Source of the DNA: a virus
DNA length: 43,263 nt
IMG/VR virus record: IMGVR_UViG_3300045988_018894
Location: 1 to 43,263 of that record
Strand: one strand, 5' to 3'
Below are positions 3,545-38,400 of the stretch, in pieces. The notes beneath the pieces are model-generated. The model was given only the letters and a program-made list of their open reading frames with translations, had not been told where the DNA came from and ran no database searches. Position numbers and translations under genes: made by a program. Every line of letters begins with the position of its first letter. Position 1 is the first letter of the stretch.

Positions 3545-3590
3545 TTAGGTGTAGTTTACGCTATATAGCGGCAGTGTAAACTGTGCCTAA
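3545..3590. other. Candidate attP core for the serine integrase
   Basis: Imperfect 15-bp inverted arms, TTAGGTGTAGTTTAC (3545-3559) and GTAAACTGTGCCTAA (3576-3590), match 12/15. They flank a 16-bp centre containing the perfect palindrome GCTATATAGC. The patch is AT-rich and abuts the int stop codon. Confidence 0.4.
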
Positions 3591-4903
3591 CGCGTGGTTA
3601 CAAAAAATGCGCCATTGTTGTCGGCGTCAATGCGCTTGATGGTGCGAGTCCAAAATTCTTTTTTTTCGATCCGCGAGAGCCCTGGATACTGTGCGATGGC
3701 CTCATGCAAACTGGCTATGTCTGGGGGATCTGGAGTCTCAACTTGCGCGGCGTGGAGCTGCTCCTGCAATTTGTCATAGTCGGCGCGATAGGTTGGCATA
3801 TCAATCATCTCTGCGAGGTACAGTTCTTTCAGCCGATCAAGCTTGCGCAAGATCTTGGCTGGGTCAATCCGAGACTTTCTCTCGCGCCCCTTTTTGGTTG
3901 AAGAGTAGGCCGTTTTGACTATATGCTCCAGCTCTGCGAGTAGGTATATTTCGAGTTCCGATTCGCGGACCCGTTTGGTATGTGGGCAAGCCGTAATATC
4001 AAGCATGTGGGAGCGGCAACGATAATAAGTGTAAACTTTCTTGACTGTCTCGGACTGCATCGATCGGCCACATTCGCGGCAATAAATCAGCCCAGAGAAC
4101 AAATATATGTGAGGGGTTTCGACTCCGCTGCATCGCTGTGCTTGCTTCGCGATGATCTCCTGCGCCAAGTCGAAGTCCTCTTTGGATACAAGCGCAGGGA
4201 TCCGATTAGGTATACCGTGTACCTCTCCGATGTAGAGACGGTTCCGGAGTGCGCGATTAAACGTGTTGTACACGGCATCAATGCCCCACTGATCCATCAT
4301 ATATCTACGCGTAGCGTTGACGCTGCGCGTTTGGATATAATGCGTAAACATTGCTTGCACGGCGGGGGCGTCTTTCGTCTGAACGTAATCCCCATCCTTG
4401 ACCATCAGCCCGATAGGAGCCTTGGAGCTGATGGGTACACCCTTGGCTCTTCGACCATCGTTTACAAAGCGAATCCGCTCACTGGTTCTGTCGGCCTCAT
4501 CCTGCGCGACGGAAAGCATGATGTTGACCTTTAGCCGTCCTGCGGCGGTCTGGGTCTCATAGTTCTCCTCGGTGGCGCACCACGTCACACCGGCTTTTTC
4601 GAGGACGGGCTGGACGGCGTAATAGTCCGCGACATTTCTAAACCAGCGGTCGAGTTTGATAAAATAAATGGTGTCGATCTTACCGGCCTCGCAGTCCTCC
4701 AACAAGCGTAGGAGCGCCGGCCGCTTTTTGTAAGGCTTGCGGGCGGAGATCCCCGCGTCCTCGTAGATGCCCACGACCTCAAGGCCGTGGGCTTTGGCGT
4801 AGGCAAGGAGTCGCGCTTTTTGCTCCGCGAGGGAGTATCCATGGCGGGCTTGCTCCTCGCTGGAGACGCGTACATAGAGCGCGGCGCGTATTTGCTTTGG
4901 CAT
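3587..4903 (-). CDS. int: Large serine recombinase (phage integrase), 438 aa
   Basis: Resolvase-type N-terminus AALYVRVSSEEQ with catalytic-Ser context, a recombinase domain, a Cys cluster (CRECG...YYRC...CPH) and a C-terminal coiled coil. Confidence 0.9.
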   Translation of the reverse strand: MPKQIRAALYVRVSSEEQARHGYSLAEQKARLLAYAKAHGLEVVGIYEDAGISARKPYKKRPALLRLLEDCEAGKIDTIYFIKLDRWFRNVADYYAVQPVLEKAGVTWCATEENYETQTAAGRLKVNIMLSVAQDEADRTSERIRFVNDGRRAKGVPISSKAPIGLMVKDGDYVQTKDAPAVQAMFTHYIQTRSVNATRRYMMDQWGIDAVYNTFNRALRNRLYIGEVHGIPNRIPALVSKEDFDLAQEIIAKQAQRCSGVETPHIYLFSGLIYCRECGRSMQSETVKKVYTYYRCRSHMLDITACPHTKRVRESELEIYLLAELEHIVKTAYSSTKKGRERKSRIDPAKILRKLDRLKELYLAEMIDMPTYRADYDKLQEQLHAAQVETPDPPDIASLHEAIAQYPGLSRIEKKEFWTRTIKRIDADNNGAFFVTTR

Positions 4904-5476: not shown

Positions 5477-5516
5477 CAGGATCCGCGGCGCTGCTGCGGA
5501 GGCGCCGTGGATCCTG
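5477..5516 (-). terminator. 15-bp-stem hairpin downstream of the membrane-protein gene (no clear U-tract)
   Basis: CAGGATCCGCGGCGC (5477-5491) pairs with GCGCCGTGGATCCTG (5502-5516) with one G-U pair. Confidence 0.35.
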
Positions 5517-5529
5517 TTAAACCGTACAT

Positions 5530-5829
5530 TTAGTCGTCGCGCAGATCCCCGGTCACGGATCCGGCGAGTTTTCCACGGCGCTTTAAGATGGTCGTGCCAA
5601 CGTAATAAGTGGTAAAAAAGCAAATCACGCAGTCCATGATTACGATGACGCGGAGCAAGTCGCTGCCCATGGAGGCAAACATTCTGCCGGGGCCGAGGAT
5701 CGCAAACACGATAGATAACCCCCGATATCCCTTTGGGGTCATTGGCTTTTTTCTCAGCCCGGCGACGAGCCACGGGATAATACCCACGGCGAGGACGTCG
5801 GCGAGAAGAGCAAGTGCGTAATTGAGCAT
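5530..5829 (-). CDS. Small integral membrane protein, about 3 TM segments (99 aa); possible lysogeny-expressed moron
   Basis: Strong RBS GGAGGG 5 nt upstream. The sequence is hydrophobic throughout. Confidence 0.7.
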   Translation of the reverse strand: MLNYALALLADVLAVGIIPWLVAGLRKKPMTPKGYRGLSIVFAILGPGRMFASMGSDLLRVIVIMDCVICFFTTYYVGTTILKRRGKLAGSVTGDLRDD

Positions 5830-5861
5830 AAAATCCCTCCAAACAATGATTTATTAATTTT

Positions 5862-5890
5862 AGTTTACGGCAAATCGTCTGCATCTGCAA
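5862..5890 (-). promoter_or_regulatory. Candidate promoter TTGCAG-17 nt-TAAACT for the membrane-protein gene
   Basis: Hexamers read on the minus strand within an AT-rich patch. Confidence 0.3.
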
Positions 5891-5980
5891 GGCAAAGTTT
5901 CCGCGCCGGGCGTATTTGGATGATTGCACAAGTACCGACGCGCCAATGAAGCAAAACGCCGAAACGGAAGGGGAATTTGG

Positions 5981-6082
5981 ATGGAACGAGGAGACCTGAT
6001 CCGCAAAATCTGCGCACAGCTGGACAGTTTGCCGCCGCCAGTCCTGCGCGTAGCTCTCGCGTTTGTGCGGGGACTACATTAG
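5981..6082 (+). CDS. Possible small ORF (33 aa), MERGDLIRKICAQLDSLPPPVLRVALAFVRGLH
   Basis: ATG after GGAAGGGGAATTTGG, with a terminator following immediately. Too short for the ORF track. Confidence 0.3.
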   Translation: MERGDLIRKICAQLDSLPPPVLRVALAFVRGLH

Positions 6083-12311: not shown

Positions 12312-12679
12312 TGCGTCACCTCCACTTTGATAGATCCGCCATGCCACACCTCATGCGTGACACGACGCACCCACCTTTGGTTGTCGTCCGGCAGGATCCA
12401 GCCCTTTAGGGCGTCGACGATTGCCTTGCCGATGACGGCATGGTTGTCGATATCGAGGCGATCGTCCCACAAAAACCGGATTGATACCGGAGCAGACGTC
12501 AGGCGACGCGGGATACCGGCTTTGCGCAGCGCTGCGCGGGTGATTGCGTGCAGCTCCTCCGCATCGCGCTTGCGCTGTTGCCAGCACTTGCCGGCGTAGT
12601 AGGCATTTAACCCGTAGCGCTTGTTCCACGCGGCCTTCCCGCGCTGCGTCGGCGGGTATTGGATTGTAAACTCAGTCAT
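12305..12679 (-). CDS. rusA: RusA-like Holliday junction resolvase (124 aa)
   Basis: DIDNHAVIGKAIVDALKGWILPDDNQ matches the RusA D-x-D-N...K...D...DD signature. Confidence 0.7.
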   Translation of the reverse strand: MTEFTIQYPPTQRGKAAWNKRYGLNAYYAGKCWQQRKRDAEELHAITRAALRKAGIPRRLTSAPVSIRFLWDDRLDIDNHAVIGKAIVDALKGWILPDDNQRWVRRVTHEVWHGGSIKVEVTQW

Positions 12680-13323
12680 ATGTCACCCCACGTCATGTAT
12701 TTTTCCAGATTCGCGCCCGCGTAATTGCAGTCCGGCAGGCCACGGCTTTTAGGCGGCGGGGATTTGGCGAGGCGATCAAAAATGATCCCCTGCCAATTGC
12801 TGGACATGCACCTGTTGATCAAGTCGACCACGGCCTGATCCCCGTACTTCTCGGCATTGTGCCGGATCTCGGAGACGAGGGCGCGTAACCCCTCCGGTTT
12901 GTAGGCTTGATTTTTCTCTGATTTATACCGGATCCACGACTCCACCGCACCCCGCAGCGCCGGAGAGAGTCCGCTCAGATCCGGCGCCGGGGTTCGGCAC
13001 ACCTCTTTTTTGGGCAGATTTGCTGGGGGCTGTGGGGTCGGAGGAGGATCCTCGCGCTTAACCGGCTTCTGCGGTGGATCCTTTTTTGGATGCGCCCCGC
13101 CGGCACGTCCTGCGGCAGCTTTTTTCTGCGCGCGGACAAGCTGGGGCAGGATCAGCTCCACGGCGACCGCCACGATGGGTGGGAGAACGTTGAGGTCCGG
13201 CAGCTCTCCGGCCAGCGCGAACCGCTGGAGCGCGTCATAAAATGCGCACCGCTCGACCGGATCCTCGATCCGGTCGGCGGCGCGGGCGTATGCGGATGTA
13301 AAGGCAAACTGCTCCCGCTCCAT
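12676..13323 (-). CDS. DUF6291-like / replisome-organiser-like protein (215 aa)
   Basis: The N-terminal pattern FAFTSAYARAADRI...FYDALQRFALAGELP...ILPQL and the C-terminal pattern W..Y...K...Y...G...W.GIIF are recalled from phage replication-organiser proteins. A Pro/Lys-rich linker joins them. Confidence 0.45.
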   Translation of the reverse strand: MEREQFAFTSAYARAADRIEDPVERCAFYDALQRFALAGELPDLNVLPPIVAVAVELILPQLVRAQKKAAAGRAGGAHPKKDPPQKPVKREDPPPTPQPPANLPKKEVCRTPAPDLSGLSPALRGAVESWIRYKSEKNQAYKPEGLRALVSEIRHNAEKYGDQAVVDLINRCMSSNWQGIIFDRLAKSPPPKSRGLPDCNYAGANLEKYMTWGDI

Positions 13324-13332
13324 TGCTCCTCC

Positions 13333-13746
13333 TTAAAACGGAATATCTCCGTCCTCGTCTGCCTCATCAAATCCGGCTGCAGACACGTCTATGGGTCTTC
13401 CGGCGGGCTTTACGGCATCCCGCTGTTTGGATCCTCCGGCAAAGTAAACGCTCTCTGCGGCGATCTCGACCGCCGTGCGCCTGGATCCGTCTTTGGCCTG
13501 ATATGCTCTGGACTGGATCCGGCCGGTTACGACGATCGGATCGCCCTTCGCAAAGTAGCGGGTGACAAACTCGGCGGTCTGACGCCACGCGACCACGTCG
13601 ATGAAGTCCGTCTCCTTGTCGCCGGACTGGGACTTGAAGTCGCGGTCGACGGCCAGAGAAAAGCCGGTGACAGGGGTTCCGGACTGCGTTCTGCGCAGCT
13701 CGGGGTCGCGGGTCAGGCGACCCATAATGACAATCTTATTGAGCAT
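13333..13746 (-). CDS. ssb: Single-stranded DNA-binding protein (137 aa)
   Basis: OB-fold N-terminus MLNKIVIMGRLTRDPELR and acidic tail DEADEDGDIPF. Confidence 0.95.
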   Translation of the reverse strand: MLNKIVIMGRLTRDPELRRTQSGTPVTGFSLAVDRDFKSQSGDKETDFIDVVAWRQTAEFVTRYFAKGDPIVVTGRIQSRAYQAKDGSRRTAVEIAAESVYFAGGSKQRDAVKPAGRPIDVSAAGFDEADEDGDIPF

Positions 13747-17373: not shown

Positions 17374-17465
17374 CAGCGGTCACCTCCGATCCGGCAGATG
17401 ATCCGCACCGCCGAGGCGGCGATTGCTGCGGCGCCAATGTAGGCGCAAATCCATGTGATGGTCAC
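17373..17465 (-). CDS. Possible 30-aa hydrophobic peptide (GTG start)
   Basis: The GTG overlaps the upstream stop (CAGTGACC). Sequence VTITWICAYIGAAAIAASAVRIICRIGGDR. The stop overlaps the next ATG (TGATG). Coupling supports it, but it is very short. Confidence 0.3.
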   Translation of the reverse strand: MTITWICAYIGAAAIAASAVRIICRIGGDR

Positions 17466-17650
17466 TGGGCAAGTCTCCTTTCCACGTCCTGCGGCGTAAA
17501 CCGCTGTCTTGTGTTGGCTTCCGGGTCGACGATGTCGATGTACTCATAGTCCCCGTGGGAGGCAACGATCGCGAGGTTGAGCAGGATCTTTACACGATCC
17601 GGCGGGCGATCAAAAATCACCTTGTACTGGGGCTTCTCTCGCTTTGCCAT
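17462..17650 (-). CDS. Hypothetical protein (62 aa)
   Basis: RBS GAAGGAGGCGTAACC before the ATG. Confidence 0.6.
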   Translation of the reverse strand: MAKREKPQYKVIFDRPPDRVKILLNLAIVASHGDYEYIDIVDPEANTRQRFTPQDVERRLAQ

Positions 17651-17653
17651 GGG

Positions 17654-17806
17654 TTACGCCTCCTTCGTCTGCTTCCGCGGCTGGGCAGCTTTTGAGCCGT
17701 CCGCCAGTCCGTTTGCATAGGCCAGCAACAACAGCTGCTGCTGGCGGCTCATGCCTCGCATCTCGCGCATGATAAGATCCACCGTGCGCTTATCCTGTGC
17801 GGTCAT
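17654..17806 (-). CDS. First gene of the leftward early operon (50 aa), Cro-position small protein
   Basis: RBS GGGAGGTGACAGT before the ATG at 17806. Sequence MTAQDKRTVDLIMREMRGMSRQQQLLLLAYANGLADGSKAAQPRKQTKEA. Below the track cutoff. Confidence 0.5.
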   Translation of the reverse strand: MTAQDKRTVDLIMREMRGMSRQQQLLLLAYANGLADGSKAAQPRKQTKEA

Positions 17807-17861
17807 ACTGTCACCTCCCTGCGACTGTCTTTGTGTTGCAATGCTCTGTGTCTATGTTGCT

Positions 17862-17890
17862 ATAATACGCCACGAAGTTGCATTTGTCAA
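17862..17890 (-). promoter_or_regulatory. Leftward early promoter TTGACA-17 nt-TATTAT
   Basis: Near-consensus hexamers on the minus strand, about 55 nt upstream of the ATG at 17806. Confidence 0.55.
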
Positions 17891-17921
17891 TGCTTTTATG
17901 TGCGTTTGTGTCAAAAATTTC

Positions 17922-17952
17922 TTGACTTGCGTCTACTTTGGTGGTTTAATAT
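17922..17952 (+). promoter_or_regulatory. Rightward promoter for the repressor gene: TTGACT, then a 17-19 nt spacer, then TTTAAT/TAATAT
   Basis: Hexamers read directly. The -10 lies only about 10 nt from the annotated GTG. Confidence 0.5.
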
Positions 17953-17961
17953 AAGCAGGAG

Positions 17962-18336
17962 GTGAGACCCATCAAAGACCGTATTAAGACCTTACGCAAG
18001 GCGCTTGGATTAACACAACAGGAGTTTGCCGACAAGATCGGCATTAAGCGTGGAGCTGTGGCAAACTATGAGCTGGGGCGAAACGAACCAATCGACGCTG
18101 TGCTGTCGCTTATCTGCCGCGAGTTTCACGTAGACGAGCACTGGCTCCGCACCGGAGAGGGAGAGATGTTTGTCCGATTGTCCCTTGAGGAGGAGCTGGC
18201 GCAGTATGCGGCGCAGGTGCTGACCGATCCGGCGCAGGAGCTGCAGCGCGAGCTGCTGCGGATCATGGCAAGATTGGACCCGCAGGACTGGAGCGCGCTG
18301 GAGCGGATCGCAAAAAAGATCCGGCAGGAGCCGTAA
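17962..18336 (+). CDS. CI-like XRE-family repressor (about 124 aa)
   Basis: HTH LGLTQQEFADKIGIKRGAVANYELGRNEP plus a C-terminal helical domain. Start uncertain: the GTG at 17962 overlaps AGGAGG, and the codon at optimal spacing is an in-frame ATC at 17971. Confidence 0.8.
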   Translation: MRPIKDRIKTLRKALGLTQQEFADKIGIKRGAVANYELGRNEPIDAVLSLICREFHVDEHWLRTGEGEMFVRLSLEEELAQYAAQVLTDPAQELQRELLRIMARLDPQDWSALERIAKKIRQEP

Positions 18337-18347
18337 GCAAAAAAAAG

Positions 18348-18376
18348 ACCCGTCCCATAAGGGGCGGGCTTTTTTA
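18348..18376 (+). terminator. Rho-independent terminator of the repressor gene
   Basis: GACCCGTCCC-ATAA-GGGGCGGGC (one G-U pair) followed by TTTTTT. Confidence 0.7.
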
Positions 18377-18387
18377 TGGCCTTGAGA

Positions 18388-18419
18388 GGGGGAAGGGGGG
18401 ACTATAGGGGGGTAAGGGG
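18388..18419 (+). other. Canonical G-quadruplex-forming motif G5-AA-G6-ACTATA-G6-TAA-G4
   Basis: Four runs of 4 or more G with loops of 2, 6 and 3 nt, read directly in non-coding DNA. Confidence 0.6.
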
Positions 18420-18425
18420 AGAGCC

Positions 18426-18456
18426 TTATCTCCTACAAGATAGATTCTTTTTATCT
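18426..18456. repeat. TTATCT / AGATAG / TTATCT triple (direct plus inverted) in an AT-rich spacer
   Basis: TTATCT at 18426 and 18451, and AGATAG at 18438. Confidence 0.5.
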
Positions 18457-18467
18457 ACTAGGGGGAG

Positions 18468-18500
18468 TCTTTCTTTTCTTTGCTTCTTTCTTTTCTTTGC
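18468..18500. repeat. Two tandem copies of TCTTTCTTTTCTTTGC (17-bp period), inverted relative to the downstream iterons
   Basis: Identical 16-mers at 18468-18483 and 18485-18500. Their complement, GCAAAGAAAAGAAAGA, resembles iteron units. Confidence 0.85.
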
Positions 18501-18506
18501 CGGGAA

Positions 18507-18660
18507 GCAAACAGAAAGCAAGTTGCAAGCAAACAGCAAGCAAACAGCAAGCAAAATGAAAGCAAACGATAAGCAAAACGTAAGCAAAAAGAAAGCAACG
18601 AGCAAGCAAACAGGAAGCAAAACGAAAGCAACAAGCAAGCAAAAGGAAAGCAAAAAGAAA
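18507..18660. repeat. Array of 14 tandem 11-bp iterons, consensus GCAAAcaGaAA
   Basis: GCAA begins at 18507 and recurs every 11 bp without exception up to 18650 (18518, 18529, ... 18650). A degenerate 15th unit (GCAC, 18661) lies in the terminator stem. Only 5 T occur in the 154 nt. Confidence 0.95.
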
Positions 18661-18685
18661 GCACCCAGCAATCACGCTGGGTGCT
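18645..18685 (-). terminator. Rho-independent terminator of the leftward 4-gene operon
   Basis: AGCACCCAGC-AATCAC-GCTGGGTGCT, followed on the minus strand by TTTCTTTTTGCTTTCC. Confidence 0.75.
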
Positions 18686-18699
18686 GTTTGCTATATGCG

Positions 18700-19011
18700 C
18701 TACTCTCCTTCGATGACATCGAGGACCCACTGGTCGCCGCGCTCAAACTCACTCGCTTTAAGCCCAGGGAGGCCGTCGTTGTCGATTCCGTGGTTCGCGG
18801 CGTAAACGGCCGTGTACCAAAAGTCGAGCATATCGTCGAGATCATCATCGCTGGAGACGATGACATCGGAGCCGGGCAGACGATCGGGGTGGGTGCGCGG
18901 AAAATCGGGTTCCAGATCCTGCAGGCAATCGGGGCTGTAGTTGCTGTCCCAGCCGCCGGTATAACGGCGGAGGGAAACGGTGACGGTACGGGTGGGTGTG
19001 GTGATAATCAT
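18700..19011 (-). CDS. Strongly acidic hypothetical protein (103 aa)
   Basis: The ATG follows AAAGGAGC. About 22 D/E versus about 7 K/R by hand count (SSDDDLDDMLDFW). No family recognised. Confidence 0.65.
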   Translation of the reverse strand: MIITTPTRTVTVSLRRYTGGWDSNYSPDCLQDLEPDFPRTHPDRLPGSDVIVSSDDDLDDMLDFWYTAVYAANHGIDNDGLPGLKASEFERGDQWVLDVIEGE

Positions 19012-19012
19012 G

Positions 19013-19162
19013 TTATGCTCCTTTCTGGCCGTCGTTGACGGCCTTGAGCAGAATCTGCTCGATGTAGTTGGACAGAGATCTCTTGTCGGCGGCGGCGAGC
19101 TGCTCGAGACGGGACTTTAAGGTGGCGTCGATGCGTAGGCCGACGGTTGCGGTTTTAGCCAT
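19013..19162 (-). CDS. Ribbon-helix-helix (CopG/Arc/MetJ-type) DNA-binding protein (49 aa)
   Basis: RBS TGAGGAGGCGTAACC. Sequence MAKTATVGLRIDATLKSRLEQLAAADKRSLSNYIEQILLKAVNDGQKGA shows the beta-strand then two-helix RHH pattern. Below the track cutoff. Confidence 0.7.
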   Translation of the reverse strand: MAKTATVGLRIDATLKSRLEQLAAADKRSLSNYIEQILLKAVNDGQKGA

Positions 19163-19174
19163 GGTTACGCCTCC

Positions 19175-19885
19175 TCAATCCCACATGTGATCAACAGCGT
19201 GAGAACCCCACTCCGCCCGCGCGTCCGACAGCGCCGAAGCGGCGTCCTCGCCGTTGATGATGCGCTCCAGCGCTCTTTGGCCGGCAGCGGCCTTAGCGTA
19301 GTGGGACGCATTGGCCATGGCCTCGGCCTCAAGGTAGGCGGCGGCGCGGGGGTACGCCTTGTACAGGGCGTCCATATCGTACTGCGGGCGGGGGCGCACG
19401 CCCAGCCCGCCGCAATCGTCAAAGCTGCGCTCGAACTCAGCGCGCCATGCGGCGAGATCGGCCATCGCGGCGCGGATCTCGGACAGCCCGGTGATGGCGT
19501 CGATCTTAGCCTGCCGCTTAGCGGCGGCTCTCCGCTGGGCATCGGCATCATCTGTCAGGATCTCGATGATCTCCGGCTTAGAGGCGACGATGGCATCCCA
19601 GTTGCCGTCCCGCTTGGCATTAGCCCCGCGCCCGATGCGGAGCTTTCCGTTGGGGACAAACCCCTTGCCGGGGATGAGGTCGGTAGCGAGGGTGATGTCA
19701 TACGCATAGATCAGCCCTCGAGGAGTCAGCGTGGCACCATCCTCGATAGGCTCCGACGCGACCACCGTGACATCTGTGTAGCCGAGATTATCCAGCTCGT
19801 TGATGGCGGTAGACAGATGCTCAGCGCGGATCCGCTCGCTCACGGGGCGTCCGTTTTTGATTGCTGTGTAGTAGTAATACTTCAT
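19175..19885 (-). CDS. Hypothetical protein (236 aa)
   Basis: RBS AAAGGA. Appears to have two domains, with an Ala-rich helical C-terminal half. No family recognised. Confidence 0.7.
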   Translation of the reverse strand: MKYYYYTAIKNGRPVSERIRAEHLSTAINELDNLGYTDVTVVASEPIEDGATLTPRGLIYAYDITLATDLIPGKGFVPNGKLRIGRGANAKRDGNWDAIVASKPEIIEILTDDADAQRRAAAKRQAKIDAITGLSEIRAAMADLAAWRAEFERSFDDCGGLGVRPRPQYDMDALYKAYPRAAAYLEAEAMANASHYAKAAAGQRALERIINGEDAASALSDARAEWGSHAVDHMWD

Positions 19886-19919
19886 TTTTTAGTCCTTTCC
19901 GGCCAAGAGGCCTGTCCGC
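19877..19919 (-). repeat. 5' UTR/RBS cassette, copy 1 (GGACAGGCCTCTTGGCCGGAAAGGACTAAAAAATGAAGTAT)
   Basis: About 85 percent identical to copy 2 at 20382-20424. Contains a GGCC-N4-GGCC hairpin, the SD and the first three codons. Confidence 0.8.
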
Positions 19920-20390
19920 TTACTTATTTACGCCGTCCTGCGCGTCCAGATACTGGATGATTTCCGCGCGATGCGTCTTGATGTAGTCGCGCGTTGCGTC
20001 CTCCTGCCCGTCCCACATGGTGTATCTAAGTTTGCCGTCATCCTTGCGCGTGATCCTAAACGCCTGCACGGCCTCCTTGACCGTGACCTCGCTCCAGTCA
20101 GGCCCCATCCCGTATTCGCCGATGTGGGCGACGATCTCGCACAGAACGTGGTCGACAATCTTGTCAAGGGACTTGGTGGAGAAGGTACACGCCCAGGGGC
20201 TGCCGACGTTGGCGACGACCTTATTGCCGGAAACGCCAAGCGACACGGTGTAGCCGTCCTGCGCGCCGATCTGGAGCACATAGCGGGGCCCACGGCCCAG
20301 CCCCCACACGATCGCCTCCGCGATCGTGTCAAATCCGATTTCGCTGTCAAAGATGCAGCTATCGTTGCTCAGGCAAACTTCATACTTCAC
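19920..20390 (-). CDS. Hypothetical protein (156 aa from the GTG at 20390; the track uses TTG at 20399)
   Basis: The GTG lies 9 nt after AAAGGA and the 5' cassette is the same as for the next gene. No family recognised. Confidence 0.65.
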   Translation of the reverse strand: MKYEVCLSNDSCIFDSEIGFDTIAEAIVWGLGRGPRYVLQIGAQDGYTVSLGVSGNKVVANVGSPWACTFSTKSLDKIVDHVLCEIVAHIGEYGMGPDWSEVTVKEAVQAFRITRKDDGKLRYTMWDGQEDATRDYIKTHRAEIIQYLDAQDGVNK

Positions 20391-20424
20391 GATTTTCAAT
20401 CCTTTCCGGCCAAAGGCCTGTCCG
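20382..20424 (-). repeat. 5' UTR/RBS cassette, copy 2 (GGACAGGCCTTTGGCCGGAAAGGATTGAAAATCGTGAAGTAT)
   Basis: See copy 1. Confidence 0.8.
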
Positions 20425-20457
20425 ATGGGTGGGCGTCTATCGTTTGATCTTGCCTAT

Positions 20458-20486
20458 ATTGTACAACAATGTTTAACATACAGCAA
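20458..20486 (-). promoter_or_regulatory. Candidate leftward promoter TTGCTG-17 nt-TACAAT with the palindrome ATGTTTAACAT in the spacer
   Basis: Hexamers read on the minus strand, with an 11-bp palindrome between them. Confidence 0.45.
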
Positions 20487-20544
20487 TAGGCATACTGCAC
20501 AAAGATTTGCATTAGGAATTGCGTGTTTTGACGGGGCTTGGCGT

Positions 20545-20573
20545 GGGACATTGGCAAAAATCAGGGATATAAT
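20545..20573 (+). promoter_or_regulatory. Candidate rightward (late/packaging operon) promoter GGGACA-17 nt-TATAAT
   Basis: Perfect -10 and partial -35. Confidence 0.4.
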
Positions 20574-20865
20574 AGATGCGTGGGTTATGGCTTGGGGCTA
20601 CACACTCTCCTTTTTGTTGCCCCCGCAAGGGGGCTATGCGGCCAAGAGTATATACGCGGTGCAACTCCGCGGGGCCGCGCTAGGATGGGCTGATCATCCC
20701 CCAATCATGGATGACGGGCAGGTGTTTAGCAGCGTCTGCCAAAGCGGGAGCCGCCCCGTAAGCGCGGCAGGATGTAGCCGGTGACGGCTGGGGACTATCT
20801 GCCGATATGCAAGGGCGGGAGCAGGCAGATCAATACAACAGACACACGATGGGGGGGGATACGCC

Positions 20866-21267
20866 GTGGCCGAGGTGATTAATCCGCGCAAGCGCAAAAA
20901 AATCGTGGCCGACTATGTGGCGCTGGGATCATACGCGGCAGCGGCGCGGATCAACGGCGTGGCACCCAACAGCGTTAAGCGGATCGTGGCGGCGGAGCCG
21001 GAGATCGCGCGGCTTTGCGCACAAAAAAAAGAACAGGATACGCAGGACGTGTTGGCGTACATGGGGCAGCAGTCCGATCTTGTCTGCGATATCATCGGCA
21101 AGGGGCTTACGGCGCTGGCCGATGAAGATAAGCTGGCAGCGGCCAACCCGGCGCAGATCACCACGGCGATCGGCACGCTGATCGACAAGTGGACGATGGT
21201 CCGCGACCGGCAGACGCAAAGCGGGGTACAGGTGGATCTCGGGGACGCGGAGGATTACAGCGGATGA
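20866..21267 (+). CDS. terS: Terminase small subunit-like HTH protein (133 aa, GTG start)
   Basis: Sits immediately upstream of terL with an ATGA overlap. N-terminal HTH-like segment IVADYVALGSYAAAARINGVAPNSVKRIV. The G8 run 7 nt upstream serves as the SD. Confidence 0.6.
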   Translation: MAEVINPRKRKKIVADYVALGSYAAAARINGVAPNSVKRIVAAEPEIARLCAQKKEQDTQDVLAYMGQQSDLVCDIIGKGLTALADEDKLAAANPAQITTAIGTLIDKWTMVRDRQTQSGVQVDLGDAEDYSG

Positions 21268-22691
21268 TCACGATCCACATCGACAAGCCCAACGCGCGGC
21301 AGGAGCTGTTTTTGCGCGATCGGCACAAGTACATCGCATTCGGCGGGGCGCGCGGCGGCGGCAAAAGCTGGGCGGTGCGCACCAAGGCCAAGCTGCTGTG
21401 CCTGCGGTATCCCGGCATACGATGTTTGATCGTCCGGCGGACGTACCCGGAACTGATTAACAACCACATCCGGCAGCTGCGGCAGGAACTGGCCGGTGTT
21501 GCGCGATATAACGATAAGGACAAGATCCTGATGATGCCGGGCGGCAGTTCCATTTCCTTCGCCTACTGCGCCAAGGACGGGGATCTGGACCGGCTGCAGG
21601 GCGTGGAATATGACGTGATTTTTTTGGACGAGGCGACGCAGCTAAGCGAGTATCAAATGACCACCATCACGGCATGTCTTCGCGGTGTGAACGCCTTTCC
21701 GAAGCGGGTGTACTACACCTGCAACCCCGGCGGGCAAGGCCACCAGTACATCAAGCGGCTATTTGTGGACAGGCACTTCTTGCCGGGGGAAAACTCTGAC
21801 GATTACGCGTTTATCAAGTCGCTGGTGACGGACAACACCGCGCTGATGCGGCGGGACCCGGAGTACATCCAGCAGCTGGAGGCGCTGCCGGAGCGTCTGC
21901 GCCGGGCATGGCTGAACGGGGATTGGGATGTGTTCTGGGGCCAGTTTTTCGAAGAGTTCGCGGACGCGCCGGCACATTATGATGATCGGCGCTATACGCA
22001 CGTCATCGCGCCGTTTGAGATCCCGCCGGACTGGCGGATCTATCGGTCGTTTGACTGGGGCTATGCCAAGCCCTTCTCATGCGGGTGGTGGGCGGTCGAC
22101 TACGACGGATGCCTCTACCGGATTCTGGAGCTGTATGGGTGTACGCGGGAGGCGAACACCGGACTTAAGTGGCCGCCGGACAAGGTGTTCGCGGAGATTC
22201 ACCGGATCGAGACGGAGCACAGGTGGCTGAAGGGCAAGATGATCACGGGCGTTGCCGATCCGGCCATCTGGGACGCGGAGCGCGGGGAGAGCATCCAGGA
22301 GACTGCCGCGCGGCACGGCGTGTACTTTTCGCGCGGGGACAACCGCCGCATACCGGGCTGGATGCAGATGCATTACCGGATGGCATTTGACGAAGCCGGG
22401 CGGGCGCAGATGTACATCTTTTCCAACTGCCGCGCGGCGATCCGCACGATCCCGCTGCTGCAGTACGACGATCACCACGTCGAGGATCTGGACACGACCG
22501 GCGAAGATCACGTCGCCGATGAGATGCGGTATCTGTGCATGGCGAGGCCGATCAAGCCCCGCGTTAAGCATGGGCGGGATCCGTATCTGGATAGCCCGCT
22601 GTACACGGCGCTCGATATCCCGCGCGAGGACATCCTCCCCGCGCCGGATTTGGCGCCGATGACGATCAAGGAGGTAACCGATGGCGATTGA
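21264..22691 (+). CDS. terL: Terminase large subunit (475 aa)
   Basis: Walker A FGGARGGGKSW, Walker B-like VIFLDEAT and a C-terminal nuclease-like region. Confidence 0.9.
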   Translation: MITIHIDKPNARQELFLRDRHKYIAFGGARGGGKSWAVRTKAKLLCLRYPGIRCLIVRRTYPELINNHIRQLRQELAGVARYNDKDKILMMPGGSSISFAYCAKDGDLDRLQGVEYDVIFLDEATQLSEYQMTTITACLRGVNAFPKRVYYTCNPGGQGHQYIKRLFVDRHFLPGENSDDYAFIKSLVTDNTALMRRDPEYIQQLEALPERLRRAWLNGDWDVFWGQFFEEFADAPAHYDDRRYTHVIAPFEIPPDWRIYRSFDWGYAKPFSCGWWAVDYDGCLYRILELYGCTREANTGLKWPPDKVFAEIHRIETEHRWLKGKMITGVADPAIWDAERGESIQETAARHGVYFSRGDNRRIPGWMQMHYRMAFDEAGRAQMYIFSNCRAAIRTIPLLQYDDHHVEDLDTTGEDHVADEMRYLCMARPIKPRVKHGRDPYLDSPLYTALDIPREDILPAPDLAPMTIKEVTDGD

Positions 22692-35468: not shown

Positions 35469-38400
35469 ATGACCAACAACGATCTGGCGGTGGAGCTGCT
35501 GCAGCAGCGTAAGAAGAAGCGCGAGGATCCGCAGTCTGCGGCGACGCAAACCAGCACGCAGAATATGAGCGGACAGGCCGCTCTTGCGCAGGAGCTTTTG
35601 TCTCAGCGGATTCAGGCGCGGAAAGAGCGCGAAGCGACGCAGCCCACCGTCAGCCTTCCCTCGCAGAGAATTGACCCGGCGAAGGAGCGGCAGGAGAGCA
35701 AGGGCAAGTTTAACGGCTGGAAGTATTTCGGCAACCTCGGAAAGACGCTACTGACCGGCGTTGCAAGCCTTGCACAGACGGGAGCCATGGCCGAGGATGT
35801 TGTGACTTCTGCCGTGGATACGATCTTCAAGGGTGCGAACACAAAGGGAAGTGGCCTCTTCAATGCACTGTATCACGGCCGACCGGATTGGAAGTTCCTC
35901 GGCGAGAATGGCCTCGTCGGCATCGAGCAGGAGAAAGCCTATCTCGATCAGGAACGAGAGGCTGAAGTCGCCAAAATCAAGGATGACACTTTTGGCGGCA
36001 AGGTCTCCAAAAAGGCTGCGTCGTATGGCGGCGATATCGCGTATGGCGTAGGCGGCGCGATCCCCATGGCGGCGACTGCGGGAGTTGCGGCGGCACCTAT
36101 CGTCAACGGCGTAGCGACATCAACGGAGGCGCTTGCAAATCTGGGCGCGTCCGTCGTGGAAAGTTCCGGTGTGCTGAATGCTCTGGGGAAAGGGTTTCGC
36201 GACACGCTAAGATCCAAGGACTACTGGATGGCATTTACATCCGAGGTCGGCGCGGATTACCAGGAAGCCCTTTCTGATGGCGCAAGCACGGGCGAAGCCA
36301 TGAACTACGCCATCGCCACCAGCCTTCTTAACTCTATAATCGAAGTCGGCGGTGGTATCCAGAAGGTACCGGAGAACTTCAGCGTAAAGAATCTCCTGCG
36401 CAGCGCCGCAGAGGAGGGCATGGAGGAAATCTGGCAAGGCCCCGTCGGGCGCACAATGCAGAACGTTGTGTACGGCGCAGACAATCCCATCGGGTCGCTT
36501 TCGGATGACCGCGCGATCTTTAACCCCGTGACATCCGCACAGGAGTTTGCGGGAGGGTTTGCCGTCGGCGGCATTCTTTCCGGCGCACAGATGGCGGCGG
36601 GGAAAGCCGCAGGCAGCGTCTATAACAAGCAGATCGAGAAGCAGAGCAAGCGCTATGAGCAGGCGCAGCAGATGGTAAGAGACCGCTCCGGCGTAAAGGG
36701 TACGTATCAAACACAGGAGGACGGGAAAACCACGGTCGGCGGCAGTGAGTCTGCGATCAAGTCCGTCGTAAAGGACGGGCAGATCGAGATGGAGAACGGC
36801 GAGGTTGTTTCCCCTGAGAAGGTAACGTTCGCGGATCGGAACACTGCGGATCTCTATGAGGGCGCGATCAACCGCGCGGCAAACGCCGGAGCGGCGAATG
36901 TTTTTATCGATTCTTATGCTGGCGGCGACGTGAGCCGTTATCTGCTTGGGATGCAGGAGGCGTATGAGGATGGCCGCGCCGGTGTCGTAACCGAGAAACG
37001 CGGGACGTTTGCGGACGATCTGACGGACGCGCAGCGCACCGCTGCGTGGAATCAGGGCGCGGCGGACGGGCTTCAGAGCTTCCGCTCCGACACCGGACTC
37101 GGTGAAAACGGCAGCGCCGCGTGGACGCAGGTGCAGCAGAATCAGGCCGTGAGGAGCAACCCGCGCCTCCGCACGGGCTTTACCTCGATGTATCAGGCGG
37201 GGCTGAGCGGGAAAGCGCTGACCGACGTGAAGAGCGACGCGGCAAAGTATATCCCCCCATCCGTACAGACGGCGGCATATCAGGCGGGGCTTGCGGACGC
37301 GGCGAGCAGCCTTGCGCGGGAAAAGGCCGGGGTAAAACTGGTTACGCGCTCCGATGAGTCGGGGCTTGCTGACAACGATTACAGCCGGAATCTTGCCAAC
37401 AAAGACGCCGGAACGGCACGCGTACTGGGGGCTTTGGCAAGCGACATGGGCGTAAGGATTGAGATCGTCCCACAGGTACAGGGCGGCGCGGCGAACGGCA
37501 AGTACGTCAATAAAACAAACACGATCCAGCTTGCGGCAGACGCGGATAACCCGCTCGCCTTTGTCGCGGCGCATGAGGTGACGCACCGGATGCAGGATGC
37601 CGCGCCCACGGAATACCACGCGTATCGCGACGCGGTGATGGCATACCGCGCGAACGAGCTGGGGGATGATACGGCGGCGCATATGGTAGAGCGCTACCGC
37701 GACGCAAGCCGCGAGGCTGGCGTGACGCTGACGCAGGAAGAGGCCATGGACGAGATCGCGGCGGACTTTACCGCGAAGATGATCGACGACGCTAACCTCT
37801 TTGAGAGGTTCGCCAGACAGAACCGCACGGAGGCAAAGACCCTACTCGACCGCTTGAAGGAATTTATCTCCAAGGTCAAGAACCTTGTCGCATCCAAGCG
37901 CAACAAAGCCGCGCAGGAGGCTTACGGCAAAAACTTCGCGGAGCTGCAGAAGATCGCAGCCCTTTGGCAGACGGCGTATGACAAGGCGGCAGAGACGGTC
38001 GGACACGCAGTTTTGGTTACAAATGATGCTCCGACTGCTGGAGTGTCTTACGATGATGCCGTTTACTCATTGCGTGTTACAGACGAGGCGCTTAAAAACG
38101 GTGATGTTGCCAGTATCCCGCCCAGCATTTCCCCAAAGTCTACGCCAGTTCGTTCTACTGAGATTCTAACAGACAGCGCGGTGGTGACCGCTGATGACGG
38201 GGAGCGCTACTCGCTGAAGTCGATGAAGCGTGACATCGCCGAAGGGCAGATGTTTAAAGACCTGAAGTCCTACTGCAACTGGACGCAAGCGCAGGTCGAC
38301 GAGCTGAAAACGAACATCGAGGAGCTTGTCCGATACATGGAGCCGCACCGCGACATCCTCGACATGAACGAGACCACCGGACGAGATGACCGGCGTTTTT

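What the first reader, a model, noticed from the sequence alone, without database searches (positions are those of the whole stretch)
18507..18664. Fourteen strictly 11-bp-phased GCAAA iterons in the non-coding gap beside the repressor gene
Seen directly:
- GCAA starts at 18507 and recurs every 11 bp with no phase slip up to 18650 (14 units, consensus GCAAAcaGaAA). A degenerate 15th unit lies in the terminator stem.
- The block is almost T-free on the plus strand (5 T in 154 nt).
- An 11-nt period cannot be a coding repeat, and no RBS or start codon fits.
- One unit per helical turn places every GCAAA/A-tract on the same DNA face, which predicts intrinsic curvature and cooperative one-sided protein binding.

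Established precedent: arrays of short iterons bound by small ribbon-helix-helix proteins act as centromeres or operators. Examples are plasmid R1 parC (11-bp iterons bound by RHH ParR) and the heptad arrays bound by omega of pSM19035.

Context here:
- A 49-aa RHH gene (19013-19162) lies in the adjacent operon.
- The CI-like repressor gene lies on the other side.
- GTTGC(A/T)A boxes (the complement of GCAAC-type units) recur at exactly 21-bp spacing in the switch region, and GTTGCAA also occurs inside unit 2.

The array could therefore be a centromere-like site, a replication-origin iteron set, or a distal operator bank that loops to the switch across the repressor gene.
Basis: partly seen in the sequence, partly recalled or inferred. 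Interest (0 to 1): 0.8.

Follow-up and report, generated by a model that had tools for sequence, protein, structure and literature searches.

The report
Displaced phage replication-origin repeat array
Fourteen 11-base repeats beside a phage repressor gene are most likely the virus's replication origin: many related phages carry the same kind of repeat array inside a replication-module gene, but here it lies in non-coding DNA.

Summary
AAGCAA recurs 14 times at exactly 11 bp (18505-18660); shuffles never give more than 4 in a row.

The array belongs to a larger non-coding cassette between two terminators:
- a G-rich box (18384-18425);
- an AT-rich spacer;
- a pyrimidine tract (18468-18500);
- the array.

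The same kind of array, AAGCAAA plus 4 variable bases, occurs in many uncultured phages. There it lies inside a gene, just after the N-terminal domain of DUF6291-family proteins, and is read in all three frames. In 66 DUF6291 genes sampled without reference to the array, 74% have an 11-bp period at that spot; control segments have 0%.

The window's own DUF6291-like gene (12676-13323, next to SSB) has no array. In all five members of this clade the array sits outside the gene, beside the cI-like gene, with 13 to 28 units.

The G-box 18-mer also occurs in linkers of lambda-O-type and replisome-organizer genes, downstream of their iterons.

Best reading, about 55%: a relocated iteron-type replication origin, comparable to SPP1 oriR. 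The centromere and distal-operator readings are not supported. No protein binding was tested. Repeat cores differ between near-identical proteins, so what recognises the repeats is unknown.

The parts
18349..18376 (+). Intrinsic terminator of the cI-like gene; left boundary of the non-coding cassette
   Evidence: stem CCCGTCCC/GGGGCGGG followed by a T run. In relatives the stem changes but the hairpin is kept.
18384..18425 (+). G-rich box GAGAGGGGGAAGGGGGGACTATAGGGGGGTAAGGGGAGAGCC. Its core 18-mer GGGGGGACTATAGGGGGG lies at 18395-18412. This is the only four-run G-quadruplex motif in the window.
   Evidence: Coordinates and G4 scan. One substitution among the four aligned relatives, while the flanking cI-like gene 3' end diverges. 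Its complement is often in frame, as PPYSPP or PPIVP, in linkers of replication-initiator genes of the DUF6291, Phage_rep_org_N, Phage_rep_O and HTH_36 families.
18426..18467 (.). AT-rich spacer with a small inverted repeat (TAGAT-N7-ATCTA), ending in AGGGGGAG. It lies inside the least stable DNA of the window and is the candidate unwinding element.
   Evidence: the least stable 100-bp window of the 43 kb is 18399-18498, and the least stable 300-bp window is 18425-18724. One substitution among the four aligned relatives.
18468..18500 (+). Pyrimidine tract TCTTTCTTTTCTTTGC x2 (17-bp period). On the minus strand it is a purine tract (GAAAGA-like). It is the counterpart of the purine or hexamer repeat block that follows the array inside genes of relatives.
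   Evidence: TRF. Nearly invariant in relatives. In-gene counterparts are (GAGAAA)n and (AATGTN)n.
18505..18660 (+). The array: 14 units of 11 bp, AAGCAAAnnGn, A-rich and T-poor on the plus strand; candidate iterons
   Evidence: Unit number varies in relatives (13; 10+14; 11+17; 10+~8), mostly by multiples of 11 bp. The same class of array lies inside DUF6291, Lin1244_N and DUF1376 genes.
18660..18685 (.). Bidirectional terminator-like hairpin AGCACCCAGC-N6-GCTGGGTGCT; right boundary. The T-rich complement of the array serves as its U-tract for the minus-strand cassette.
   Evidence: The stem carries compensatory changes in L348.
12676..13323 (-). DUF6291-like gene, 215 aa. The model has a three-helix N-terminal domain, a proline-rich disordered linker with no array, and a helical C-terminal domain. 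It is the candidate replication organizer and candidate binder of the array.
   Evidence: BLASTP E=8e-13 to a Pfam-positive DUF6291 protein. Full-length homologues at 35-43% identity carry PF19808. It sits between SSB and RusA. AlphaFold2 model. The linker DNA has no repeats.
13333..13746 (-). SSB gene, a conserved neighbour of DUF6291 genes
   Evidence: Pfam SSB 9.7e-34. SSB homologues were found in 35 of the fetched loci, in several directly upstream of the DUF6291 gene.

Best explanation
The array is the iteron part of the phage's replication origin. The full element runs from 18384 to 18685 and has four parts: a G/C box, an AT-rich spacer of low stability, a purine/pyrimidine tract, and fourteen helically phased repeats.

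In most phages with a DUF6291-type replication-module protein, the repeat array and the tract that follows it lie inside that protein's gene, in the linker after the N-terminal domain; a subset also carry a C-box. This is the arrangement of lambda ori inside gene O. In this clade the gene has lost these elements, and the array, tract and G-box lie in non-coding DNA 5.2 kb away, between two terminators. This resembles SPP1 oriR, which is an extragenic second origin.

Inferred mechanism (not shown):
1. The organizer protein (12676-13323), alone or with a partner, coats one face of the curved repeat tract.
2. The strain opens the adjacent AT-rich DNA.
3. The host replisome is recruited. No phage helicase, loader, primase or polymerase was detected.
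For: Shown here:

(1) Same array class inside replication-module genes. Scanning viral contigs for four GCAAA at 11-bp spacing gave at least 120 loci. Forty arrays have conserved AAGCAAA with variable 4-nt spacers. Of the 25 whose reading frames were examined, 20 lie in a long ORF directly after an N-terminal domain identified as DUF6291, Lin1244_N or DUF1376.

(2) Sampling without reference to the array. In 66 distinct DUF6291 genes picked only by N-terminal peptides, the first 110 bp after the domain has its best period at 11 bp in 49. 74% have a period of 10-11 bp with at least 60% self-match. Two control segments give 0%.

(3) The constraint is on DNA, not protein.
- Eleven is not a multiple of three, so all three frames are used.
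- Core bases match the consensus 95/99/99% at codon positions 1/2/3.
- The only coding imprint is that T is absent from codon position 1 of the spacers, which avoids stop codons.

(4) The window's gene is a family member without an array, and its clade has the array outside the gene.
- tblastn shows 44% identity to proteins whose genes hold a 6-unit array followed by an A-rich tract and a C-box.
- All five clade members (window, L121, L122, L123, L348) have the array at the same intergenic site.

(5) The flanking block is under constraint. The 120-bp block 18378-18497 is almost invariant in relatives, while the cI-like protein falls to 58-81% identity.

(6) Origin-like layout in known initiator families.
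- The G-box 18-mer lies in linkers of Phage_rep_O and Phage_rep_org_N genes.
- In the sense direction it is preceded by family-specific iterons and an A-rich tract. L256 has four ~22-bp dyad iterons; L246 has 11-bp units.
- In viral contigs, strong direct repeats occur upstream of the box in 17% of cases against 0% in controls.

(7) Physical properties.
- The least stable 100-bp and 300-bp windows of the whole 43 kb are here.
- Predicted curvature ranks 3rd of 3919 windows and depends on the 10-11 bp period.

(8) Genomic context.
- The gene lies in a module of Sak, RecE-like, NinB, SSB, [gene], RusA.
- No other initiator, helicase or primase was detected.

Established precedent from the literature:
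- Lambda ori is four iterons plus a 38-bp AT-rich tract inside gene O (PMC3349717).
- SPP1 oriL lies in gene 38 and oriR is intergenic; both are bound by gp38 (PMC6316719).
- TP901-1 ORF13 and Tuc2009 Rep2009 bind direct repeats inside their own genes, and these act as ori (PMC8965321).
Against: - No binding or replication data exist for any DUF6291 protein. Cultured phages with the domain annotate it as hypothetical, and the paper library holds no paper that mentions DUF6291.
- The window protein misses Pfam DUF6291 at E<=0.01.
- Its model gave no structural match, so a DNA-binding fold is not shown.
- Proteins more than 90% identical in both domains carry different repeat cores: AAGCAAA, AACCAAA and AACCCCT. 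Sequence-specific recognition by this protein is therefore doubtful unless only the shared AA(G/C)C and the phasing are read.
- The same AAGCAAA core follows three different N-terminal domain families.
- GC skew is uninformative. The cumulative minimum lies near 14-16 kb and is confounded by gene orientation.
- Relative to the purine tract and C-box, the array is inverted compared with the in-gene layout.
- The curvature parameters were recalled from memory, so that result is qualitative only.
Confidence: 0.55

Rival explanations
1. The array is a cis-acting structural element of the replication/recombination module but not the initiation site. One possibility is a curved-DNA protein-coating site that stalls forks and triggers the switch from theta to rolling-circle or recombination-dependent replication, as proposed for SPP1 oriR. 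Another is an architectural site read by shape rather than by sequence.
For: - Repeat cores differ between near-identical proteins, while the 11-bp phasing and A-tracts are constant.
- Predicted curvature depends on the period.
- The phage encodes the same recombination toolkit that SPP1 uses to restart at oriR: exonuclease, SSAP, SSB and a junction resolvase.
Against: - With the in-gene copy lost, no other origin candidate was seen in the window.
- The adjacent DNA is the least stable of the genome, and the iteron, AT-tract, box layout matches initiation sites.
Confidence: 0.15
2. The array is an operator or centromere-like site coated by the small RHH protein (19013-19162), working like ParR on parC or omega on its heptads. 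It would regulate the adjacent cassette or segregate an episomal prophage.
For: - An RHH gene is the neighbour, or near neighbour, of the hairpin in all five clade members. In L348 it abuts the hairpin directly.
- Eleven-bp iterons are known for R1 parC (my own knowledge).
- The RHH assignment is weak but consistent: PHROG Arc-like repressor 1.1e-5; Pfam hits are below cut-off.
Against: - No ParA, ParM or TubZ-type NTPase was found in the ORFs scanned between 3.6 and 22.7 kb (plus 36207-37682).
- A large serine recombinase is present.
- The array lies downstream of the RHH operon's terminator, not at its promoter.
- Loci of other phages carrying the same array class have no RHH homologue within the fetched flanks.
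Confidence: 0.08
3. The array acts as RNA or through transcription. It would be an A-rich, unstructured transcript or an R-loop-forming purine-rich tract, made by read-through from the cI-like gene. In relatives it would be part of the mRNA.
For: - In every in-gene case the A-rich strand is the sense strand.
- In L108 an array follows a consensus TTGACA-17-TATATT promoter.
- The plus-strand RNA of 18377-18700 folds better than shuffles (z = -3.7), through pairing of the G-box with the pyrimidine tract.
Against: - Here the array lies between two terminators and no promoter was predicted.
- No Rfam family matches.
- The sense orientation inside genes is explained by coding needs: a T-rich sense strand would encode a hydrophobic linker.
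- A period equal to the DNA helical repeat points to duplex DNA.
Confidence: 0.07
4. The array is a functionless remnant of a gene linker that was moved by recombination and then expanded by slippage.
For: - Unit number varies freely among close relatives, from 13 to 28, and blocks of units are duplicated.
- Some units in L348 are 10 bp long.
Against: - The core AAGCAA is intact in 14/14 units while the spacers differ.
- The flanking 120-bp block is more conserved than the neighbouring genes.
- The cassette is kept at the same site in all five clade members.
- No trace of a flanking N-terminal domain remains.
Confidence: 0.08
5. The array is a packaging (pac) recognition site made of phased A-tracts and bound by the small terminase, as in SPP1 pacL/pacR.
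For: - In this clade the array lies 1.4-2.2 kb from the putative small terminase gene (20866-21267).
- Phased A-tracts occur in SPP1 pac (my own knowledge).
Against: - In other phages the array lies in replication-module genes next to SSB, not at terminase genes.
- The companion G-box occurs in lambda-O-type and replisome-organizer genes.
Confidence: 0.04
6. The array is a distal operator bank for the cI-like repressor that loops to the switch region.
For: - The array lies next to the cI-like gene.
- One unit contains GTTGCAA, as do two boxes at 17835 and 17856.
Against: - GTTGCWA is not enriched: 6 found against 8.8 expected.
- It is absent from the arrays of relatives.
- The cassette is unchanged while the cI-like protein diverges to 58% identity.
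Confidence: 0.02

Closest known systems
Bacteriophage lambda ori inside gene O (Phage_rep_O family)
   Same: - Direct repeats are followed by a strand-asymmetric A-rich, low-stability tract.
- The element is embedded in the linker of the initiator gene in relatives.
- The G-box 18-mer of this window occurs in the linker of a Phage_rep_O gene, downstream of four dyad iterons (L256).
- Lambda layout is taken from PMC3349717.
   Different: - Lambda has four 18-bp dyad-symmetric iterons about two turns apart. Here there are fourteen asymmetric 7-bp cores, one per turn.
- The element is outside the gene.
- No P or DnaC-type loader gene was detected.
- The candidate initiator is DUF6291-like, not O.
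Bacillus phage SPP1 oriL (in gene 38) and oriR (intergenic), bound by gp38
   Same: - An origin-type repeat plus AT-rich unit lies in an intergenic region bracketed by transcription signals, kilobases from the organizer gene.
- The accompanying gene set is the same: SSB, exonuclease, annealing protein and junction resolvase.
   Different: - SPP1 keeps an in-gene copy as well; this clade has only the extragenic one.
- SPP1 encodes its own loader and helicase.
- The repeats are unrelated in sequence.
Lactococcal P335-type phages TP901-1 and Tuc2009: replisome organizers (Phage_rep_org_N) that bind direct repeats inside their own genes
   Same: - The origin is made of direct repeats inside the organizer gene, with SSB nearby.
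- A Phage_rep_org_N gene (L246) carries 11-bp units, a purine tract and the same C-box 18-mer.
   Different: - The N-terminal domain family differs.
- Binding is shown there and untested here.
- The element is extragenic here.
Plasmid R1 parC / ParR, and omega of pSM19035 (RHH proteins coating short repeats)
   Same: - Many short direct repeats lie at or near one helical turn.
- A small RHH gene lies nearby.
   Different: - No partition NTPase is present.
- The array is not at a promoter.
- The phage is integrative.
- Loci of other phages with the same array class have no RHH homologue within the fetched flanks.

Membership tests
Iteron-type phage replication origin (lambda ori, SPP1 oriL/oriR, TP901-1 ori) | Several direct repeats spaced in register with the DNA helix | tested here: met
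   14 units at exactly 11 bp. Array indels in relatives are mostly multiples of 11 bp.
Iteron-type phage replication origin (lambda ori, SPP1 oriL/oriR, TP901-1 ori) | An adjacent AT-rich, easily melted region | tested here: met
   The least stable 100-bp window (18399-18498) and 300-bp window (18425-18724) of the 43 kb lie here, by nearest-neighbour energies.
Iteron-type phage replication origin (lambda ori, SPP1 oriL/oriR, TP901-1 ori) | Located within or beside the gene of the cognate initiator | tested here: not met
   The array is 5.2 kb from the DUF6291-like gene. It is met in homologues, where the array lies inside the gene. SPP1 oriR is a precedent for an extragenic copy.
Iteron-type phage replication origin (lambda ori, SPP1 oriL/oriR, TP901-1 ori) | Repeat sequence co-varies with the initiator's DNA-binding domain | tested here: not met
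   Proteins more than 90% identical carry AAGCAAA, AACCAAA or AACCCCT cores. Only AA(G/C)C and the phasing are shared.
Iteron-type phage replication origin (lambda ori, SPP1 oriL/oriR, TP901-1 ori) | The initiator binds the repeats and replication starts there | not testable with these tools
   This needs footprinting, 2D gels or marker-frequency analysis.
Pfam DUF6291 (PF19808), for gene 12676-13323 | Match to the family profile above the gathering score | tested here: inconclusive
   There is no hit at E<=0.01. However, BLASTP gives E=8e-13 to a Pfam-positive member, full-length homologues at 35-43% identity carry PF19808, and the N-terminal domains align.
Partition centromere bound by an RHH protein (R1 parC/ParR type) | A partition NTPase (ParM, ParA or TubZ) encoded in the same operon | tested here: not met
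   None was found in family scans of the ORFs tested between 3.6 and 22.7 kb, plus ORF 36207-37682.
Partition centromere bound by an RHH protein (R1 parC/ParR type) | Repeats overlap the promoter of the par operon | tested here: not met
   The array lies past the terminator at the 3' end of the RHH cassette, and no promoter was predicted.
Partition centromere bound by an RHH protein (R1 parC/ParR type) | The RHH protein binds the repeats | not testable with these tools
   The RHH gene is adjacent in all five clade members, but loci of other phages with the same array class have no RHH homologue within the fetched flanks.
Distal operators of a CI-type repressor | Same recognition sequence as the operators at the switch, co-varying with the repressor | tested here: not met
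   GTTGCWA occurs in 1 of 14 units, is not enriched, and is absent from the relatives' arrays. The cassette is unchanged while the cI-like protein is only 58-81% identical.
Protein-coding tandem repeat | A reading frame conserved across relatives | tested here: not met
   All six frames have stop codons across the element in L121, L122 and L123.
Known structured RNA family | Match to an Rfam model | tested here: not met
   No Rfam match in the whole window at gathering thresholds.

The most novel reading that the evidence does not exclude
The window exposes, in non-coding form, a composite origin module that is otherwise hidden inside replication-initiator genes of several unrelated families. 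Its 18-bp G/C box (GGGGGGACTATAGGGGGG) is conserved base for base across bacterial phyla. It is read in two different frames or left untranslated.

On this reading the box is a universal start signal read by a conserved host component such as the helicase, the primase or RNA polymerase. The helically phased A-rich arrays would then act by DNA shape rather than by sequence.
Probability: 0.2. Interest if true: 0.8.

Novelty: new variant of a known kind. Interest (0 to 1): 0.6.

Why it matters
- It gives a testable function, replication organizer with its origin, to DUF6291. This domain of unknown function is common in uncultured phages, and the paper library holds no paper that mentions it.
- The window is a natural separation-of-function case. 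The cis element and the protein-coding linker, normally superimposed, are unlinked here, so each can be mutated without touching the other.
- Eleven-bp repeats read in all three frames inside genes appear to be DNA signals rather than protein features. This matters for annotating low-complexity linkers in phage proteins.
- The cross-phylum G/C box is a lead to a shared step in origin firing.
- Such origins could be used to predict phage origins in metagenomes and to build phage-derived replicons or origin-based (Per-type) resistance.

Tried and rejected
- Rfam scan of the window found nothing.
- blastn of 17400-20900 against cultured phages found no relative.
- tblastn of the DUF6291-like protein against cultured phages found no match. 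The AT-rich-clade N-terminal domain hit only Riemerella and Nitratiruptor phages, annotated as hypothetical.
- Literature searches found nothing useful: nothing for DUF6291 or the G-box sequence, no relevant paper for AAGCAAA, and only incidental mentions of DUF4373, DUF1376 and Lin1244.
- Co-variation of repeat core with the N-terminal domain was expected for classical iterons but was not found.
- An AlphaFold2 model with Foldseek against the PDB, and a profile search of PDB sequences, gave no significant match. The DNA-binding fold remains unshown.
- GC skew as an origin marker was uninformative, because it follows gene orientation.
- A profile-based locus search with a 15-sequence alignment failed for lack of a conserved stretch. 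It was repeated with a closer set.
- The paper on the r1t organizer (PMC136552) is not held.
- Coding, CRISPR-like, attP and pac readings were considered and set aside on context.
Full report
**Observation.** The sequence is as described.
- AAGCAA recurs at 18505 + 11k for 14 units with no slip. A degenerate 15th unit runs into a hairpin.
- The unit is AAGCAAAnnGn. Positions 1-6 are invariant and position 10 is G in 13 of 14 units.
- The plus strand of 18507-18660 has 5 T in 154 nt.
- Tandem Repeats Finder reports period 11 (14.5 copies) and period 33.
- A chain of 15 identical 4-mers at 11-bp spacing compares with a maximum of 4 in shuffles of the window and of the A-rich segment alone.

**Setting.** The window is a temperate phage genome with 58% G+C.
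- A leftward early operon holds Sak-like annealing protein, RecE-like exonuclease, NinB, an HTH protein, SSB, a 215-aa protein, RusA, a methyltransferase and PAPS reductase. A large serine recombinase lies at 3587-4903.
- A cI-like HTH gene is at 17962-18336, and terminase is at 21189-22691.
- The array lies between the terminator of the cI-like gene and a bidirectional hairpin at 18660-18685. That hairpin ends a small minus-strand cassette of a 103-aa gene, a 49-aa RHH gene, a 236-aa gene and a 159-aa gene.
- No promoter was predicted inside the gap, and no Rfam family matches.
- Between the terminator and the array lie a G-rich box (18384-18425), an AT-rich spacer (18426-18467) and a pyrimidine tract (18468-18500).

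**The array belongs to a widespread class that normally lies inside a gene.**
- Forty arrays have the same build: a conserved AAGCAAA and four variable bases.
- Of the 25 whose reading frames were examined, 20 lie in a long ORF directly after an N-terminal domain with the motif FxFYRSFYEA...LIKPxLDA..RK...G..GG. The array is followed by a second block of hexamer-like repeats, (AATGTN)n or (GAGAAA)n.
- Pfam assigns the domain to DUF6291. Single cases follow Lin1244_N and DUF1376 domains.

**A sample drawn without reference to the array gives the same answer.**
- Eighty DUF6291 genes were fetched using N-terminal peptides only.
- In 66 distinct genes, the first 110 bp after the domain has its best period at 11 bp in 49 cases. 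74% show a 10-11 bp period with at least 60% self-match. Two control segments of the same loci give 0%.

**The constraint is on DNA.**
- Eleven is not a multiple of three, so successive units are read in all three frames, as K-Q, S-K and A-N.
- In 20 in-gene arrays (99 units), core bases not used for anchoring match the consensus 95, 99 and 99% at codon positions 1, 2 and 3. There is no third-position relaxation.
- The spacers carry a coding imprint: T is never at codon position 1, which avoids stop codons.
The conclusion that the array is non-coding here still holds, because all six frames carry stops across the element in three relatives.

**The window's own family member lacks the array.**
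- ORF 12676-13323 aligns with DUF6291 N-terminal domains.
- It gives BLASTP E=8e-13 against a Pfam-positive member.
- Full-length homologues at 35-43% identity carry PF19808. The ORF itself has no Pfam hit at E<=0.01.
- Homologues at 44% identity (L124-L134) hold a 4-6 unit AAGCAAA array in the gene. In L125 it is followed by an A-rich tract and ACCCCCCATCCCCCCC.
- In the window's clade the linker is proline-rich, and its DNA has no repeats.

**All five clade members with enough flank carry the array outside the gene, at the same site beside the cI-like gene.**
- Unit counts: window 14; L123 13; L122 10+14; L121 11+17; L348 10 plus about 8. The split arrays are interrupted by a conserved 138-bp insert.
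- Indels in the array are mostly multiples of 11 bp. L348 has two 10-bp units.
- The 120-bp block 18378-18497 is nearly invariant, while the cI-like protein is only 58-81% identical and its terminator stem changes.
- The downstream hairpin keeps its structure through compensatory changes.

**The G-box links the element to known initiator families.**
- Its complement is in frame as PPYSPP or as PPIVP, two different frames, inside linkers of genes with DUF6291, Phage_rep_org_N, Phage_rep_O plus Phg_2220_C, or HTH_36 N-terminal domains.
- In the sense direction the order is N-terminal domain, family-specific direct repeats, A-rich or hexamer tract, C-box, C-terminal domain. L256 of Haemophilus parainfluenzae has four ~22-bp dyad repeats. 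L246 has 11-bp units. L267 and L272 have 12-bp units.
- In viral contigs, 17% have strong direct repeats in the 300 bp upstream of the box, against 0% in controls.
- This is the layout of lambda ori inside O and of the origins inside the organizer genes of TP901-1 and Tuc2009.
- The window has the purine tract, AT spacer and C-box in that order on its minus strand, with the array inverted relative to them.
- Many hits are in non-coding DNA, and some belong to other repeat families, so the box is not understood.

**Physical properties.**
- Nearest-neighbour energies place the least stable 100-bp and 300-bp windows of the whole 43 kb at 18399-18498 and 18425-18724.
- A wedge model, with angles recalled from memory and therefore qualitative only, ranks the array 3rd of 3919 windows for curvature. 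Curvature is lost if the period is changed to 9, 12 or 13 bp.
- GC skew follows gene orientation and does not help.

**What argues against a simple iteron model.**
- Proteins more than 90% identical in both domains (L159, L177, L189) carry AAGCAAA, AACCAAA or AACCCCT arrays.
- The AAGCAAA core follows three different domain families.
- So either only AA(G/C)C and the phasing are read, or DNA shape matters, or another factor reads the repeats.
- The AlphaFold2 model shows a three-helix N-terminal domain, a disordered linker and a helical C-terminal domain, with no significant PDB match. DNA binding is therefore inferred, not shown.
- No helicase, loader, primase, polymerase or partition ATPase was detected in the early region.

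- Centromere: there is no partition NTPase, an integrase is present, and the array lies beyond the operon's terminator. RHH homologues are confined to this clade, while loci of other phages with the same array class have none within the fetched flanks. The RHH gene is nevertheless adjacent in all five clade members, so a local regulatory role cannot be excluded.
- Distal operators: GTTGCWA is not enriched (6 found against 8.8 expected). It occurs in one unit only and is absent from the relatives' arrays. The cassette does not change with the repressor.

**Verdict.**
- The element is very likely a cis-acting DNA signal tied to the DUF6291-type replication module. About 55% probability goes to the reading that it is the phage's replication origin, relocated out of the gene as in SPP1 oriR.
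- The kind is known: an iteron-type origin. The variant appears undescribed in the literature and databases I could search: one short repeat per helical turn, up to 28 units, normally embedded in a coding linker, and accompanied by a G/C box shared across initiator families.

Noticed in passing
Its complement lies in frame in two different frames in initiator-gene linkers, and it also occurs in non-coding DNA. It is often preceded by GTCCCCCC-N4-8, which forms a hairpin with GGGGGGAC. Some hits belong to a multi-copy hairpin family in Chloroflexota (GTCCCCCCGCCGCAGCGGGGGGAC). Others belong to a non-coding family in Oscillospiraceae, Dysosmobacter and Colidextribacter, followed by CCGCGCGCRTAAAA.
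   Followed up: partly
window 18388-18419: This is the only canonical G-quadruplex motif in the whole 43-kb window: four runs of at least 4 G with loops of 2, 6 and 3. Relaxing the rule to at least 3 G per run adds none, and no matching C-run motif was found.
   Followed up: no
L121 3991-4127, L122, L348 ~2455-2595 (no counterpart in the window): A conserved insert of about 138 bp splits the array in two in three relatives. It contains a GC-rich hairpin-like stretch and a possible 35-codon basic ORF. The window and L123 lack it.
   Followed up: no
DUF6291 genes in L148-L227: After the 11-bp array nearly every gene has a second block of 6-bp repeats, CTAATGTAAATGTTAATG..., which encodes NVNVN. 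GC-richer relatives have GAGAAA (EKEK) instead, and actinobacterial-type genes have CCGACC. The 11-bp cores fall into types: AAGCAAA, AACC(A/T)AA, AACCCCT, AACCACC, AAACAACC, and AGCAAA at 10 bp.
   Followed up: partly
L189 10198+ (AACCCCT array): Units ending in CCCCT followed by AAAAA create a TAA. The one unit where that TAA would be in frame reads CCCCAAG instead. This is a visible compromise between the DNA motif and the reading frame.
   Followed up: no
L108 3560-3700: A six-unit AAGCAAA array lies in non-coding DNA about 20 nt downstream of a consensus promoter (TTGACA-17-TATATT) and just upstream of a 71-aa membrane-protein ORF. C-rich runs (C5, C8, C4, C4) lie about 200 bp upstream. 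A 177-aa ORF in the same locus (5484-6017) contains NVRSK repeats.
   Followed up: partly
window 17830-17960: The switch region has a strong leftward promoter (TTGACA-17-TATTAT, 17890-17862) overlapped by TGCAAC/GTTGCA boxes at 17835, 17856 and 17878. By eye, a rightward TTGACT-17-TTTAAT lies before the cI-like gene. These boxes are probably the true operators.
   Followed up: partly
window 18700-20399 versus L348 1404-2314: The cassette between the array and the terminase genes varies among close relatives. The window has 103-aa, RHH, 236-aa and 159-aa genes. L348 has RHH, an AcrIC5-like 66-aa gene and a 157-aa gene. It looks like an accessory or anti-defence gene slot.
   Followed up: no
window 18377-18700 (+ strand RNA): Folded as RNA, the G-rich box pairs with the pyrimidine tract through many G-U pairs (MFE -95 kcal/mol, z = -3.7), while the array stays unpaired. 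Folded as DNA the z-score is -2.1.
   Followed up: no
window 17962-18336: The cI-like repressor is only 124 aa. Only HTH-type Pfam matches were found, and no peptidase-type domain.
   Followed up: no
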